Assembly (NCBI RefSeq): GCF_009914755.1
Contig: NC_060926.1
Source: the human T2T-CHM13v2.0 reference genome, Homo sapiens
Length of the DNA stretch: 64,000 nt
Direction: 5' to 3' (one strand)
Of this stretch, positions 29,926 to 39,503 are shown piece after piece. The position numbers and the translations under genes were made by a program. Numbering within the stretch: the stretch's first letter is position 1; each line of letters starts with the position of its first letter. Below the pieces are notes generated by a model, which was not told the origin of the DNA, ran no database searches, and worked only from the letters and a program-made list of their open reading frames with translations.

Positions 29926-30279
29926 TGATTTGGTTTGGCTGTGTTCCCACCCAAATCTCATCTTGAATTGTAGCTCCTAGAATTCCCACGTGTTGTGAGA
30001 GGGACCCAGTGGGAGGTAATTGAATCATGGAGGTAGGTCTTTCCCATGCCGTTCTCGTGATAGTGAATAAGTCTCGTGGTTCTATAAAGGGGAGTTCCCC
30101 TGCACACGCTCTCTTGCCTTCCACCATGTAAGACACGCCTTTCCTCCTCCTTCACCTTCCGCCATGATTGTGAGGCCTCCCCAGGCATGTGGAACTGTGA
30201 GTCCATTAAACCCCTTTCCTTTACAGATTACCCAGTCTTGGGTATGTCTTCATTAGCAGTGTGAGAACAGACTGGTACA
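29926..30279 (+). mobile_element. THE1 solo LTR
   Basis: tgatttggtttggctgtg...cccacccaaatctcatcttgaattg; TSD TGCGG/TGTGG. Confidence 0.92.
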
Positions 30280-34649: not shown

Positions 34650-36402
34650 TAAGATAAAACAAGCAGGAAATAAAAAGCCCAAGTCTGGTGAACGAGTAGC
34701 CTTCACTGTTTCTGAAGGAAATGCAGCCCGAGCTATCCTAGCCATAGGATAACATCAATGACTGAGGCAAATCACAGAAATGGAGAAGGAAAATTTCTGA
34801 CTACAAAAAGGGACAAAATCAAGGTTCCCTGCAGTCTTTTAAGTGAAAAAGCAGTTTAGGAAACCCCTTGCTGCAGACCCCCAGATGTATCCCCTACTGT
34901 CCCAACCCAAAGCCGTCCTGAGACCTCTGCTCTGGGCTCAGGCTGCCCCTGGCTGACTCCAAGGAGAAACCCAAGCAGAATTCTACAGCTCAGTATTTCA
35001 GACAATCCTGTAAGGATTCAGGGCTCATTTCTCCCAGATCTCAGACCAGCCTCCTCTTCCAGACACCCAGATGATTTGATTTGCCCTGAGGCCTTCGAAG
35101 CCAATATTTCCCAAACCACAGATTGCAACTCATTCTCCACCACTTCATTGTTGACATAAACCTTGGCATGATCTACCCACCCATAAGCTTGCTTATTTCC
35201 CTTCATCTTAGGCACCAGCTCACATCGTGCATCCAGGGCTGCTCCATGCTGAGTAATTGCTGCATATAAACCAAGCCAAGCTTGTAAACCAGCTCTTTTG
35301 TACACCAGCTTGTACACCAGATGGGCATCTTCTGTAATCATAGCTATGCTCTCATGAATCTCCACCTACCTCCACCCCCAGGTGACTGCAATACACAGGC
35401 AAGGCTGGAAACCACAGACAGGACTTGTCAGAGTTAGAGCCTCAAGAACCTGAAGAAATGAATACCCGACATGTCCAACTCTTGCAAATAAAAAAATGCC
35501 TTAGAGAGGTGCTGGTCTTGCTGCACTGCAATCAATTGCTGGCTCAAGTCGCCAACAGGTGTCTGAATGCCAATTCCCTGCACCATAGCTTTTAGAGTCT
35601 GACTCACTCTCGCCAGAAGGGATGTGGGCTGTTGAGGTGTTGGCAGAATGGGCCAGCATGCTTCCGCCAGTCGTAGTGTTTTCTACGGTTTTTCCAAAGA
35701 AACATAAGCCTTTCTATGGACTAGCCTAGAAATCACCCTTTAAAACATTATTTCAAAAGAAATTCACATTTTAAGTTTCCAAGTCCAGTTGGTGGAATGT
35801 TCCAAGGAGATTTCCTCTCTAATGCCGTCTTGCCAAGCTACTAACACTGATGTACCTCCAACGGGTTCTCTTGAACAAAAAATTGCCAGGTAGCAAATGC
35901 CTTCACCTAGGTCCTTGTCACTCACTGTCAATCTTTCAACAGCACCTGGGGGAAAAGCACAATCCCCTGGGAAAAAAAGGACAAAAGGAAGTGTGGTGGA
36001 ATATTAGAACTCTGAGCATCCAGGAGATGGACAGCAAAGTACTCAAAGCTGTTAGCAGGATGGGTTTACAATTATAATAATCATCACAATAATAATAATA
36101 GTATTCCTCACCCTTCCTCCACCCCCACAGAGTCCGCCTGTCCTCTAGGAGGTTGAACTGCACTTGGGGAAGAAGATGGTGGTGGTCCTACCCTGACAGA
36201 GTAGCTCTTGGGTTGGAGAGGGGGCAAGAACCAATGGGCGTGTGACAGCAACCAGTCACAGAGGGCAGTAGCGGGTAATGCAAACACTCAGTAGGAGTTT
36301 GGGGTCAAGGTGGAGGCCCCAGAGAGAGATGAGCTGTCTCAGTCACTCCCTTGCCCTAGAACTATAGTTTGCCCCTCCCCTCATCAAAAAACAGGTGGCG
36401 CC

Positions 36403-37000
36403 ATGAACGGTGAATCTATGTTACTGTATTACCAGCTCCTGATGGCCAAGCAGTAGGCATGCTCAACCCCTCCATGGGGGGCCTTCAGCAACAATGATCC
36501 AAGGAAGGAGAGTGTTTGAGAGCAACATTATCCTGATTAGCAAAAGAGAAGTGATTGATGTGCAGAACTGCATCCAAATGGTAACAGTGGCCATGGCTTC
36601 CACCAGCCCCTTCCTCCACCACCTAACATCATGCTGCTGGCCTGACCAGCCACAGGCTGTGAAAAGCCTGCTGGATGTGGCCAGGCCATTAGGGGAAGAA
36701 GCCAGAGACCTCCAAGACCTTAGCACTAACCAGGCTGCTTCCCTAGAAGTCTATAAAGATTTCTGTCCTGTCCTGTCCTGTCCTGTGCTATAAGAAACAG
36801 TAGCTATGCTTAAAGCTTGCTACTTGCCATTCTTGCTACCTGCAAAAGTGTCTGCTTCAGATACACAGAAAGGCCTTATTTATTGAGAAAAACTCTTTAT
36901 CATTGGAGGCCACTAGTGGAGGGTCCCAGCAAAATCCAGGCCATCCCAACTAGGGATACAATGGACGTCTGTATCTATGGCAGAGGACAAGCACAGCCCA
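36403..37000 (+). pseudogene. Unprocessed GARIN/FAM71-family pseudogene, exon 1 (DUF3699 Rab2-binding domain)
   Basis: GGCGCC-ATG, then joined across frameshifts: MNGESMLLYY / SMGGLQQQ / VFESNIILISKREVIDVQNCIQMVTVAMASTSP / PNIMLLA*PATGCEKPAGCGQA / KTLALTRLLP*KSIKISV / KKQ*LCLKLATCHSCYLQ. This is colinear with recalled FAM71A/B ([75 protein letters not shown]). Stops at 36643, 36744 and 36801; degenerate donor GT at 37001. Confidence 0.88.
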
Positions 37001-37760
37001 GTCTAAGTCTCTGCAAACACTCAAGGAGATGGGCTCAGGGTCATACACAGCTGTTGTTCTCTGAGGCTTACCTGAAAGAGGCATTGCATTTGGAAGGACC
37101 CAGAAAAAAATGAGCCACCAGTGGGTGATGTCACCTTGGTGAGAGTCTCAGTGCTTTTTTAGAGTGTACCAGAAGGCTGAATTTAAGACCTTAGATGTCA
37201 GCTGTTCTAATCTCTTACCCAATGCTTAATCCCCCCATAGCATCCCAACCATCCAAGCTCTTCTTTTTGAACACTTACCTTCTCAAGTCACTCACTTGTA
37301 AAATGTCTTGTAAGACATTTTTAACTATTAGAAAGTCCTTTCTTTTTGAGTTCCCTGTCCATGACTGCCATGTACTCATTTGCATATATCAGTACATTGT
37401 GTGTTTGCACACATGCATAATTTGTTAGTAGTAGCTGTCAAAATGGAAAATGTGCATGTCCTACTTCTAGGAATGTCTCCCCCATAGAAATACCAGCACA
37501 AGTATGTAATATACACATGTTCAACGAGGTTCCCTGGGGAACTGTAATGGTGCTCTGCTGGTACTGGGGCTGTTCAGTCAAAATTGAATTGACCATAAAT
37601 GGGATTCCTACATTGAATGGAAGATTGGATTTGATGACCTCAAATGTAATTACATTTATAAGCCGTTAATTTGCTCCATCTCAAGAAGCAATGGGAGCAG
37701 AGCTCTCTGGTCTCCATCCTGACCTCTCTGCCTTGCTTGATTCTCCTCCCCTTGGCACAG

Positions 37761-38737
37761 GCTGTGGAGCTCCATAGAGAAGGGGGTCAGGATCAGGTTG
37801 GCATCAGGAGGCTCCACGTGGTCCCTGAGATGTCTGAGTCATCTCCTCTGGTTATGTTGTGGGGAGGGACACCAACGTAACCTCCACACACAAACTCTAT
37901 TCATGGAACAGCCAGTATAGCTACCCCAGCACATACTCTTCTACAGTCATAAACCTGTGAAGCCTGGCAAAGGACAACAGGGGTGGCAGCACAGGTAGAC
38001 ACAGGCACTGCAGCAGGCTCTCTTAGTGTAGCAGCAACCAAGTCTGCAGACCCAGGACAGACCAATGCAGCAAGGACAGGAGTAGCCACCAAGGGTCCAG
38101 GAAGAAGCACAACCAGCATGACCATGCGGTGGGGGATGGTTGCCAGAATGACCATGGGGTTACGGGAGGAATGCCAGCATGACCATGGGATTGGGGAAGG
38201 GGTTGCCAGAATGACCGCAGAGTTGAGGGAGGATGGCCAAAATGACCATGGGCTGGGGGGAGGGGTGGCCAGAATGACCATGAGGTGGCAGGAGTTGCTA
38301 GCTTGGCTATCAGCAGCAGGGCCAATATGTCCTCAGGGGCTGTTGGCAGGGTGGAGGAGGGTGTTGCAGCTTGTACCTGGAGGTGCTTCCAGCACCTCAG
38401 CAAGAGCCACCAGGCTTTCCCCAGAGGGCAGCAGGAATGTGACAACTGCAAAGATGACCCATATGCCCAATGTAGGAGCAGCCAAAGGCCCAGTGATGAG
38501 ACCTTTATCTCCATTGTGCAGAGTGACAGCTCCCTGAGTGAATTAGATGGAAGCCAGAGCCTCCTGGGCCAATGGCAAGACCAGAAGGAAATAAGGAAAA
38601 AGAAGAATAGATCTCCCAATGGGAGAAGTTTCCATTAGCCCAGGAGGGTAAAGGTCACTGCAGGACACAGAAGACAGGTCAATCTGAAAATCATCTCCTT
38701 AACCAGCTGTGGAACCACTAGAGAGGGCAAAAGAGGG
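37761..38737 (+). pseudogene. Unprocessed GARIN/FAM71-family pseudogene, exon 2 (Ala/Gly/Ser-rich and basic C-terminal region), truncated by an MLT1 LTR
   Basis: Strong acceptor ctcctccccttggcacAG|GCT, phase 0. AVELHREGGQDQVGIRRLHVVPEMS, TGTAAGSLSVAATKSADPGQ, LSPEGS and ISIVQSDSSLSELDGSQ...KEIRKKKNR parallel recalled FAM71A/B C-terminal segments; multiple frameshifts. Confidence 0.82.
38113..38286 (+). repeat. G-rich minisatellite, ~5.5 units of 30-32 bp (63-bp higher-order period)
   Basis: CCA(G/A)(C/A)ATGACC cores at 38113, 38143, 38174, 38206, 38237 and 38269. Confidence 0.9.
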
Positions 38738-39503
38738 TGTTGTGGGTTAAATTTTTCCCCCCACCCAAAAGATATGTTCATCCTAACCCCCAGGACCTAT
38801 GAATGTGAACTTATTTGGAAACAAGCTCTTGCAGATATATTTAAGTTAAGATCATTAGGGTGGGTTCTAATCCAATATGACTGCGTCCTTATAAGAAAGG
38901 GAAATTTAGATACAGAAAGACAGGCACCCACAGGGGGAAGACCATGCAGAAACACCCACCGAGAACACCATGTGATGCCAAAGGCAGTGTGTTAGTCCGT
39001 TCTCACGCTGCTAATAAAGACATACCCAAGACTGGGTAATTTATAAAGGAGGAAGGTTTAATTGACTCACGGTTTTGAAGGGCTGAGGAGGCCTCAGGAA
39101 ACTTACAACCATGGCAGAAGAGGAAGCAAACATGTCCTTCGTCACATGGCAGCAGGAAGGAGAAGTGCTGAGCAAAAGGGGGAAAAGCCCCTTATGAAAC
39201 TATCAGATCTCATGAGAACTCACTATCAGGAGAACAGCATGGAGGTAACCACCCCCATGATTCAATTACCTCCCACCTGGTCCCGCCCATGACACATGGG
39301 GATTATGGAAACTACAGTTCAGTGTAAGATTTGGGTGGGGACACAGCCAAACCATATCAGGCAGAGACTGGAGTGAGGCTCCTACAAGACAAGAAACACC
39401 AAGGATAGGTGTCAACCACCAGAAGCTGGAAGGGGGGATTCTCCTCTAGGTCCTTCAGAGAGAACACTGACTGGCCAATACCTCAATTTAAGATTTCCAG
39501 CCT
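38738..39503 (+). mobile_element. MLT1 LTR (3'-truncated) interrupted by a THE1 LTR (38988-39359, -)
   Basis: MLT1 motifs on both sides of the THE1; THE1 has a perfect TSD GGCAG. Confidence 0.88.

What the first reader, a model, noticed from the sequence alone, without database searches (positions are those of the whole stretch)
36403..38737. Hidden intron-containing GARIN/FAM71 fossil gene, antisense in TRABD2A intron 2; possible dead parent of intronless GARIN4/FAM71A
Seen: a Kozak ATG (36403) and colinear peptide blocks spread over several frames. There is a phase-0 intron at 37001-37760 with a strong acceptor and a damaged donor, at least three in-frame stops (36643, 36744, 36801), several frameshifts and a (CTGTC)n expansion at ~36763-36786. 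Established (recalled): GARIN/FAM71 proteins are testis Golgi Rab2 effectors with a DUF3699 domain; GARIN3/FAM71B has two exons and GARIN4/FAM71A is intronless. Inference: keeping an intron means this is a once-functional or duplicated gene, not a retrocopy. Residues such as PATGCE, SCYLQ and GSLSVAA look GARIN4-like, so it could be the lost parent of an orphan retrogene, or a gene still intact in other mammals.
Basis: partly seen in the sequence, partly recalled or inferred. Interest (0 to 1): 0.88.

Follow-up and report, generated by a model that had tools for sequence, protein, structure and literature searches.

The report
Decayed intron-bearing GARIN3-like pseudogene in TRABD2A
This stretch is the badly decayed remains of an old copy of a testis gene of the GARIN/FAM71 family that still carries the family's intron, one of several such dead copies in the human genome, and nothing singles it out as the lost parent of the intronless gene GARIN4.

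Summary
Window 36403-38737 (+), antisense in TRABD2A intron 2, is colinear with GARIN3/GARIN4/GARIN6: tblastn with GARIN4 gives E 9e-21 for exon 1 and 2e-7 for exon 2. The gap at about 37004-37760 is a real relic intron. It sits at the GARIN3/GARIN6 phase-0 intron position, its interior aligns to the introns of GARIN3, GARIN6 and copies on chr10 and chr16, its donor is destroyed and its acceptor is intact.

The gene is long dead. It has at least 7 stops, 15 frameshifting deletions and two tandem-repeat expansions. It lacks roughly the last 135-165 codons.

It is one of at least seven GARIN3-like pseudogene loci (chr2, 8, 9, 10, 14, 16, X). The chr9 locus matches the position of the named pseudogene FAM71BP1.

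The "dead parent of GARIN4" idea is not supported. Trees are near-star, chr2 pairs with chr10/chr9, and GARIN4 pairs with GARIN3 (support 92.5/87). Forcing chr2+GARIN4 costs 5.9 lnL (AU p 0.14, not rejected). Quartet site counts are 30/31/34. Substitutions on the chr2 lineage show no codon-position bias, so there is no sign of a long functional life.

Verdict: a new member of a known kind, of low to moderate interest.

The parts
36046..36277 (+). Conserved upstream block (promoter-like or 5'UTR-like), shared with GARIN3, GARIN4, GARIN6 and the chr9 and chr16 copies. It holds a degenerate form of a TATA-like GATAAAT motif at about 36273-36281.
   Evidence: An nhmmer profile built from the five other copies, without chr2, hits 36046-36277 at E 3.6e-15.
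36403..37003 (+). Exon 1 relic, from the ATG to the destroyed splice donor. It encodes the broken Rab2-binding region.
   Evidence: tblastn and blastn matches to GARIN3, GARIN4 and GARIN6. MAFFT alignment. Five stops and 6 frameshifting deletions.
36763..36786 (+). (CTGTC)4.8 microsatellite, a 15-base insertion specific to this copy.
   Evidence: TRF. Absent from the 8 other copies aligned across that region.
37004..37760 (+). Relic of the family's single phase-0 intron. The donor GT is lost and the acceptor AG at 37759-37760 is kept.
   Evidence: Same position as the GARIN3 and GARIN6 introns. Interior blocks 37060-37221, 37316-37462 and 37601-37676, and one block crossing the acceptor (37605-37833), align colinearly to the introns of GARIN3, GARIN6, chr10 and chr16 at 67-72% identity. 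It is not a high-copy repeat.
37761..38737 (+). Partial exon 2 relic, corresponding to profile positions of about 209 to 441-470 out of 607. The C-terminal part is missing.
   Evidence: tblastn, full-length profile, MAFFT alignment. At least 2 stops and 9 frameshifting deletions. The longest open homologous stretch is 38294-38638.
38113..38286 (+). Tandem array, 31-base unit x5.6 (or 63 x2.7), an expansion specific to this copy inside exon 2.
   Evidence: TRF. Seen as a chr2-only insertion of about 190 bases in the exon 2 alignment, and as self-matches.
38737..38988 (.). Interspersed repeat at which the GARIN homology ends. It looks like an MLT1/MaLR-type LTR, but that name is from recall only.
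   Evidence: Window 38730-38800 matches 4 unrelated chromosomes at 80-84% identity. No GARIN 3' part lies downstream.

Best explanation
This is an ancient, non-functional copy of a two-exon GARIN3-like (FAM71A/B/C subfamily) testis gene, lying antisense in TRABD2A intron 2.

The whole transcription-unit-sized piece was copied: about 350 bases of upstream sequence, exon 1, the intron, and most of exon 2. This happened during a burst of GARIN3-like duplications around or before the eutherian radiation. The same burst left GARIN4, GARIN6 and at least six other dead copies.

The copy has decayed neutrally for essentially all of its separate history. It lost its splice donor, gained many stops and frameshifts, gained two tandem-repeat expansions, and lost its 3' end. 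It has no coding function today.

What is shown: homology, the shared intron, the disablements, and the existence of the family of copies. What is inferred: the timing and the neutral history. What is unresolved: whether the copy was made from DNA or from an unspliced RNA.
For: **Homology**
- Colinear protein matches to GARIN4 and GARIN3: E 8.7e-21 and 4.4e-16 for exon 1, and 2e-7 and 1e-10 for exon 2.
- DNA identity of 68-76% to GARIN3, GARIN4 and GARIN6.
- A full-length profile gives colinear hits from 36435 to 38614, covering profile positions 14-441 of 607.

**Intron**
- The intron position and interior are shared with GARIN3, GARIN6, chr10 and chr16.
- The chr9 copy also shows intron-like sequence.

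**Family of copies**
- Copies lie on chr5, 12, 1, 2, 8, 9, 10, 14, 16 and X.

**A burst of duplication**
- Trees are near-star. Internal branches are 0.008-0.077 against terminal branches of 0.24-0.47.

**Age**
- GARIN3, GARIN4 and GARIN6 each have afrotherian orthologues by the sources' names, and GARIN3 and GARIN4 have xenarthran ones.
- The pseudogenes fall outside those three clades.

**Neutral decay**
- chr2-specific changes number 47/53/39 at codon positions 1/2/3 (p 0.57).
- GARIN3 shows 41/41/60 and GARIN4 shows 43/38/59, a third-position excess with p about 0.04.

**Damage**
- 15 frameshifting deletions and at least 7 stops.
- No 3' part anywhere in the window.
Against: - The chr2 terminal branch (0.26) is shorter than those of the other pseudogenes (0.33-0.47) and close to the live genes (0.24-0.25). 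This could mean a period under constraint, or only a low local mutation rate.
- The codon-position test rests on 139 changes and would miss a short functional period.
- The dating rests on human paralogues plus proteins of other species. The pseudogenes cluster together in the protein trees with weak support (0.2-0.86), which may be long-branch attraction.
- PF12480 itself does not score on this locus.
- GENCODE and expression data could not be consulted.
Confidence: 0.8

Rival explanations
1. The chr2 locus, or its direct ancestor, is the intron-containing parent whose spliced mRNA was retrocopied to give GARIN4. It then died, leaving GARIN4 as an orphan retrogene.
For: - A few shared letters: PATGCE, and a Cys codon in SCYLQ seen only in chr2 and GARIN4.
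- tblastn of the linker region gives 62% identity to GARIN4 against 39% to GARIN3.
- The constrained tree is not rejected (AU p 0.14).
Against: - The ML tree puts chr2 with chr10/chr9 and GARIN4 with GARIN3 at 92.5/87 support.
- The constraint costs 5.9 lnL.
- Quartet counts are 30/31/34, with no excess for chr2+GARIN4. Quartets that include chr10 or chr9 give 48 sites for chr2+chr10 or chr2+chr9, against 28 and 38 for chr2+GARIN4.
- The linker motif is also present in the chr10 and chr9 copies.
- The upstream spacer length groups chr2 with GARIN3 and chr9, and GARIN4 with GARIN6 and chr16.
- Mean exon 1 tblastn scores are 106.8 for 118 proteins of the GARIN4 search list and 109.4 for 118 of the GARIN3 list.
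- GARIN3 is a living intron-bearing candidate parent.
Confidence: 0.06
2. The copy was made from an unspliced, intron-retaining transcript of the ancestral GARIN3-like gene, by retroposition, rather than by DNA duplication. It would be one of several semi-processed copies produced in the same burst as the spliced copies GARIN4 and chr14.
For: - The copies sit on ten different chromosomes.
- No non-repeat homology extends beyond the gene-sized unit: 16 kb of the window was compared with seven 5-9 kb loci, and the flanks of chr9, chr10, chr16, GARIN3 and GARIN4 were compared with the whole window.
- Intronless GARIN4 shares both the upstream block and more than 1 kb of 3' flank with GARIN3 and chr9. 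If GARIN4 came from RNA, those flanks were transcribed, so the same unit in unspliced form could give chr2.
- Two copies, GARIN4 and the 5'-truncated chr14 copy, are clearly processed, which shows that retroposition of this gene was taking place.
Against: - Five duplicates keep the intron (GARIN6, chr2, chr9, chr10, chr16) and only two lack it. That is unusual for retroposition.
- The shared upstream block looks like a promoter, with a TATA-like motif.
- The chr2 copy has lost its 3' end, so no poly(A) tail or target-site duplication can be examined.
- TSS and poly(A) sites of GARIN3 were not available.
Confidence: 0.35
3. The locus was a working gene for a long time and was lost only on the lineage leading to humans. 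On this view it is a unitary pseudogene that is still intact in some mammals.
For: - Its terminal branch is short for a pseudogene, at 0.26 against 0.33-0.47.
- Many mammals carry extra genes that their sources name GARIN3-like, GARIN4-like or GARIN6-like. Their genomic positions could not be checked.
Against: - There is no codon-position bias on the chr2 lineage.
- It carries at least 7 stops and 15 frameshifting deletions, and its 3' end is missing.
- It may share deletions with other dead copies: two of 1 base with chr10 and one of 7 bases with chr9.
- None of the 492 stored proteins scores notably higher on chr2 exon 1. The best is 156, against group means of 89-109 for the three named search lists.
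Confidence: 0.07

Closest known systems
FAM71BP1 (pseudogene at 9p21.2)
   Same: A dead GARIN3-like copy from the same burst. The chr9:25.948 Mb locus found here lies at the position where a paper places FAM71BP1 (passage seen, PMC8489072). It also shows intron-like sequence. It is among the copies nearest to chr2: they share a 7-base deletion and letters near the 3' end of the alignment, and quartet counts give 48 against 38 and 39.
   Different: The chr9 copy keeps the C-terminal coding part and more than 1 kb of 3' flank, which chr2 lacks. It is closer to GARIN3 proteins, with a mean exon 1 score of 147.5 against 132.7 for GARIN4 proteins. It has a name. The equation of the chr9 locus with FAM71BP1 rests on chromosome band only.
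GARIN3 (FAM71B), chr5
   Same: A two-exon structure with a phase-0 intron at the same codon boundary. Exon 2 starts AAELHREG in GARIN3 and AVELHREG here. The intron interiors are homologous, and the spacer from the upstream block to the ATG is short in both.
   Different: GARIN3 is intact, with 202 + 403 codons. Its intron is about 1.9 kb and contains Alu-like sequence. The chr2 copy is disabled and truncated at its 3' end.
GARIN4 (FAM71A), chr1
   Same: The same subfamily, at 66-69% DNA identity, with some shared linker residues.
   Different: GARIN4 has no intron, is intact, and is named in Afrotheria and Xenarthra. It has the long upstream spacer. It groups with GARIN3, not with chr2.
GARIN6 (FAM71C), chr12
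   Same: It has the best local DNA identity to chr2: 75.6% over 246 bases of exon 1 and 76.6% over 94 bases of exon 2. It keeps the intron and a readable donor.
   Different: Over all shared exon 1 columns its identity to chr2 is 66%, the same as GARIN4. It belongs to a well-supported group with chr8, chr14 and chr16, at 99/100 support.

Membership tests
GARIN/FAM71 family (Pfam PF12480 GARIL_Rab2_bd) | A match to the Rab2-binding domain model above its cut-off | tested here: not met
   0 of 9 stop-to-stop frames match PF12480 at E <= 1. The locus is not among the 9 genome matches. The region is split over three frames and holds stops.
GARIN/FAM71 family (Pfam PF12480 GARIL_Rab2_bd) | Significant colinear homology to bona fide members along their length | tested here: met
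   tblastn with GARIN4 gives E 8.7e-21 and 2.2e-7. A full-length profile covers positions 14-441 in order. blastn gives 68-76% identity.
GARIN3/4/6 subfamily, two-exon gene structure | A phase-0 intron at the GARIN3/GARIN6 position, with homologous intron sequence | tested here: met
   Boundary alignment. Intron blocks align to GARIN3, GARIN6, chr10 and chr16.
Functional protein-coding gene | An open reading frame and usable splice sites | tested here: not met
   At least 7 stops, 15 frameshifting deletions and a lost donor GT.
Unprocessed (DNA-duplicated) pseudogene | Keeps the parent's intron and upstream region | tested here: met
   Intron. Upstream block at 36046-36277.
Unprocessed (DNA-duplicated) pseudogene | Homology extending beyond the transcription unit into the flanks | tested here: not met
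   No non-repeat matches outside about 36046-38737. At about 30% divergence, weak flank homology could be missed.
Processed pseudogene / retrocopy | Lacks the parent's introns, and has a poly(A) tail and target-site duplications | tested here: not met
   The intron is present. The tail and duplications cannot be examined because the 3' end is missing.
Parent gene of the retrogene GARIN4 | Exclusive sister relationship to GARIN4 | tested here: not met
   ML tree and quartets at 30/31/34. The alternative is not statistically rejected (AU p 0.14).
Unitary pseudogene (intact orthologue elsewhere) | An open orthologue at the syntenic site in other mammals | not testable with these tools
   No mammalian genomes or synteny data were on hand. 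The only indirect evidence is that none of the 492 stored proteins is specially close.

The most novel reading that the evidence does not exclude
The chr2 relic may be one of a set of intron-retaining, semi-processed retrocopies. On this reading, in a stem eutherian a long read-through transcript of the ancestral GARIN3-like gene was reverse-transcribed repeatedly. That transcript covered the conserved upstream block and more than 1 kb of 3' flank, including an old L1-like piece. Spliced transcripts gave GARIN4 and the chr14 copy. Unspliced transcripts gave GARIN6 and the chr2, chr9, chr10 and chr16 copies. A single leaky testis transcript would then have seeded two living genes and a family of fossils.
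Probability: 0.3. Interest if true: 0.5.

Novelty: new member of a known kind. Interest (0 to 1): 0.25.

Why it matters
On its own the locus is an ordinary fossil. It adds an entry, missing from the RefSeq table supplied, to a family of GARIN3-like pseudogenes of which at least one (FAM71BP1) is already named.

Its value is as a data point. Together with the chr9, chr10 and chr16 copies, it shows that the GARIN3/4/6 subfamily went through a burst of gene-sized, intron-bearing, dispersed duplications at about the time GARIN4 and GARIN6 arose.

That bears on two questions: how GARIN4 lost its intron, and whether unspliced testis transcripts can be retrocopied. GARIN proteins matter for acrosome formation and male fertility in mice (abstracts seen in the listing: PMC8602946, PMC11236154). 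The birth-and-death history of the family is therefore of some interest to reproductive and evolutionary genomics.

Tried and rejected
**Searches that found nothing for this locus**
- The Pfam scan of single frames found no PF12480, and the genome-wide PF12480 search missed the locus. The domain is too fragmented to score.
- The first tblastn with every frame of 60 residues or more from nine loci was too noisy to read. I replaced it with the longest frames only.
- I looked for the missing C-terminal part and 3' flank downstream and elsewhere in the window, by tblastn, a full-length profile and blastn with the 3' parts of five copies. Nothing was found.
- I looked for flank homology that would prove a DNA duplication. 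Only Alu-like multi-copy matches appeared.
- I looked for an annotated protein in another mammal that is specially close to chr2, using 120, then 237, 383 and 492 stored proteins. None stands out.

**Trees**
- Protein trees with read-through translations (X at each break) put all six pseudogenes together with weak support. I treat this as probable long-branch attraction and do not use it for fine placement.
It was replaced by FastTree.

**Readings rejected or left open**
- "The intron is a transposon insertion into a processed copy": rejected. Its interior aligns colinearly with the introns of four other copies, and it is not a multi-copy element.
- [quoted passage not shown]: left as a hint only. 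The two 1-base cases lie in short runs and conflict with the 7-base case over which copy is the partner.

**Literature**
- Searches for TRABD2A with FAM71 (0 papers) and with GARIN (1 unrelated paper) found no description of this locus.
- A search for six possible pseudogene symbols found only FAM71BP1, in 2 papers.
Full report
**Observation**

The region 36403-38737 on the + strand was read and translated in three frames.
- An ATG at 36403 with a purine at -3.
- Stops at 36643, 36744 and 36801.
- A (CTGTC)4.8 repeat at 36763-36786.
- A pyrimidine-rich tract ending in AG at 37759-37760.

A Pfam scan of nine stop-to-stop frames found no PF12480 (0 of 9). A whole-genome search with PF12480 listed nine places, none of them this one. 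They were the eight GARIN genes and a broken copy on chr14. The domain is too fragmented to score.

Homology is nevertheless clear.
- The 597-residue open frame of GARIN4 on chr1 matches 36512-36881 across three frames (E 8.7e-21) and 37761-38126 (E 2.2e-7).
- GARIN3 exon 1 gives E 4.4e-16, and GARIN6 gives E 3e-10 (alignments).
- At the DNA level the window is 75.6% identical to GARIN6 over 246 bases, and 68-69% identical to GARIN4 and GARIN3 over about 425 bases.
- A profile of 196 full-length GARIN3/4 proteins gives colinear hits from 36435 to 38614, covering profile positions 14-441 of 607.

**The intron**

GARIN3 has exon 1 ending ...KSLV, followed by GTAAGC, and exon 2 beginning AAELHREG. 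The window's second block begins AVELHREG at 37761.

In the exon 1 alignment the donor reads GTG|GTAAGC in GARIN3 and GTG|GTGAGT in GARIN6. The window reads GTC|TAAGT, so the GT is gone. Intronless GARIN4 and the chr14 copy run straight on into exon 2 sequence at that point.

The 757 bases between the two blocks are not an insertion.
- 37060-37221 aligns to the GARIN3 intron (71%), the GARIN6 intron (67%) and the chr10 copy (68%). In each case it lies 57-87 bases after the donor.
- 37316-37462 aligns to chr10 and chr16.
- 37601-37676 aligns to chr10.
- 37605-37833 aligns to chr16.

Searched alone against the whole genome, the intron matches only itself at the first-look sensitivity, so it is not a common repeat. 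The phase-0 intron is therefore confirmed, starting at about 37004.

**State of the gene**

In the homologous reading path there are five stops in exon 1 (36495, 36643, 36744, 36801, 36884) and at least two in exon 2 (37878, 37950).

Relative to GARIN3 and GARIN4 there are 8 deletions in exon 1 (6 frameshifting) and 10 in exon 2 (9 frameshifting). There is also the 15-base (CTGTC)n insertion, and a 31-base x5.6 tandem array at 38113-38286 that no other copy has.

Homology stops at about 38700-38737, where an interspersed repeat begins. Window 38730-38800 matches four other chromosomes. I call it MLT1-like from recall only. The last 135-165 profile positions are not found anywhere in the window.

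Upstream, a block shared by all copies is recognisable at 36046-36277 (nhmmer E 3.6e-15 with a profile built without chr2).

**The family**

Whole-genome searches with the window DNA (13 matches) and with GARIN4 protein (19 matches), followed by tblastn on the fetched loci, give this picture:

| Locus | State | Intron |
|---|---|---|
| GARIN3, chr5 | intact | present |
| GARIN6, chr12 | intact | present |
| GARIN4, chr1 | intact | absent |
| chr2 (this locus) | dead | present |
| chr9:25.948 Mb | dead | intron-like sequence seen |
| chr10:63.975-63.980 Mb | dead | present |
| chr16:66.714-66.716 Mb | dead | present |
| chr14:79.212 Mb | dead, 5'-truncated | absent |
| chr8:79.951 Mb | dead, exon 1 only | cannot be assessed |
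| chrX:52.734 Mb | dead, about 50 codons | cannot be assessed |

A paper places the pseudogene FAM71BP1 in the 9p21.2 gene desert (passage seen, PMC8489072). That fits the chr9 copy. This kind of relic is therefore already known and, in one case, named. The hub's RefSeq table has no row for the chr2 copy. GENCODE could not be checked.

**Is it the parent of GARIN4?**

An exon 1 DNA tree and a 1242-column exon 1 + exon 2 tree are near-star. Internal branches are 0.008-0.077 and terminal branches are 0.24-0.47. The groupings recovered are:
- chr2 with chr10, and loosely chr9;
- GARIN3 with GARIN4, at 92.5/87 support;
- GARIN6 with chr14, chr16 and chr8, at 99/100 support.

Forcing chr2 and GARIN4 together costs 5.9 lnL. 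The AU p-value is 0.14, so the data disfavour this topology but do not reject it.

Quartet site counts are 30 (chr2+GARIN4), 31 (chr2+GARIN3) and 34 (chr2+GARIN6). With chr10 in the quartet, 48 sites support chr2+chr10, against 28 for chr2+GARIN4 and 35 for chr2+GARIN3.

The spacer between the conserved upstream block and the ATG is about 70-95 bases in chr2, GARIN3 and chr9. It is about 300-410 bases in GARIN4, GARIN6 and chr16. The long spacers of GARIN4/GARIN6 and of GARIN6/chr16 are detectably similar (z 4.8 and 8.9). GARIN4/chr16 are not (z 0.5).

Against 492 stored GARIN-family proteins, chr2 exon 1 scores a mean of 106.8 on 118 proteins from the GARIN4 search list, 109.4 on 118 from the GARIN3 list, and 88.6 on 109 from the GARIN6 list.

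GARIN4 is also not an orphan. GARIN3 is alive, and a 2012 table lists mouse Fam71a with a 2-exon chr11 paralogue (passage seen, PMC3428356).

**Was it ever functional?**

I counted lineage-specific differences from a majority of at least 70% of the other copies, by codon position.

| Lineage | Position 1 | Position 2 | Position 3 | p |
|---|---|---|---|---|
| chr2 | 47 | 53 | 39 | 0.57 |
| GARIN3 | 41 | 41 | 60 | 0.04 |
| GARIN4 | 43 | 38 | 59 | 0.04 |

So there is no sign of purifying selection on the chr2 branch.

Against this reading, the chr2 branch is shorter than those of the other pseudogenes (0.26 against 0.33-0.47). I cannot explain this beyond local rate variation.

chr2 shares two identical 1-base deletions with chr10 and one 7-base deletion with chr9. 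These hint at descent from an ancestor that was already broken. They are not conclusive.

**Age**

By the sources' names, GARIN3, GARIN4 and GARIN6 each have afrotherian members, and GARIN3 and GARIN4 have xenarthran ones.

In protein trees of 144 and 76 sequences, the human pseudogenes fall outside those three clades. The 76-sequence tree was rooted on turtle sequences. Support is weak and long-branch attraction is likely.

Divergence of about 30% in both intron and exon between copies fits a duplication near or before the eutherian radiation. The rate used for that inference is recalled, not computed here.

**How the copy was made**

No non-repeat homology extends beyond the gene-sized unit. 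Intronless GARIN4 shares both the upstream block and more than 1 kb of 3' flank with GARIN3 and chr9. That flank includes a stretch that is multi-copy in the genome and, from recall, looks like an old L1 3' end.

If GARIN4 came from RNA, those flanks were transcribed. The intron-bearing copies could then be retrocopies of the unspliced form of the same transcript.

The alternative is DNA duplication of a small unit, with later intron loss in GARIN4. I rate the RNA route at about one in three. It cannot be settled on chr2, which has lost its 3' end.

**Verdict**

This is a real, ancient, intron-bearing GARIN3-like pseudogene. It is a new member of a known kind and has no special tie to GARIN4.

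**Papers and what was seen**
- Passages only: PMC3428356, PMC8489072 and PMC11236154.
- Search listing and abstract only: PMC8602946.
- The supplementary trees of PMC11236154 (S1 Fig) were not seen.

Noticed in passing
L024 (chr1 GARIN4), L022 (chr5 GARIN3), L029 (chr9 copy): flanks outside the coding region: Intronless GARIN4 shares with GARIN3 and the chr9 copy a conserved upstream block holding a TATA-like GATAAAT motif. It also shares more than 1 kb of sequence past the stop codon, beyond a conserved AATAAA about 95 bases after the stop. GARIN4 is therefore either a retrocopy of a long read-through transcript, or a DNA duplicate that later lost its intron.
   Followed up: partly
L022 1442-1607 (- strand), about 790-950 bases after the GARIN3 stop, and the matching parts of L024 and L029: Part of the shared 3' flank is a dispersed repeat, with 9 other genomic matches at 68-85% identity. 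From recall it resembles an old L1 3' end. It sits in the same order and orientation in GARIN3, GARIN4 and the chr9 copy.
   Followed up: partly
G000 chr8:79951565-79952055, chr9:25948405-25948915, chr10:63975676-63980020, chr14:79212584-79212910, chr16:66715776-66716349, chrX:52734036-52734182: Six further GARIN3-like pseudogene loci. The chr10 and chr16 copies keep the intron, and the chr9 copy shows intron-like sequence. The chr14 copy is processed and 5'-truncated. The chr8 and chrX copies are fragments. The chr10 donor still reads GT.
   Followed up: partly
Proteins P0084-P0097 (Balaenoptera acutorostrata); P0060, P0113, P0115 (Choloepus); P0122-P0125 (sirenians, elephant); P0457 (Vombatus); P0485-P0488 (turtles): Many mammals have extra intact paralogues that their sources name GARIN3-like, GARIN4-like or GARIN6-like. 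One example is a run of near-identical GARIN4-like proteins on a single minke whale contig. Turtles and a wombat carry GARIN6-like genes. The family keeps duplicating in several lineages.
   Followed up: no
window 38113-38286: A 31-base unit repeated 5.6 times (72% matches) inside the exon 2 relic. It is an expansion found in no other copy.
   Followed up: yes
window 38988-39360 and 30000-30279: Both stretches match one region next to the chr14 GARIN copy (L027 3570-3933) at 74-76% identity. This is evidently an interspersed repeat unrelated to GARIN. Its family was not identified.
   Followed up: no
L024 about 1420-1470 (GARIN4 5' spacer): A near-perfect inverted repeat of about 20 bases per arm lies just after the conserved upstream block of GARIN4 (seen in the alignment). 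Its meaning is unknown.
   Followed up: no
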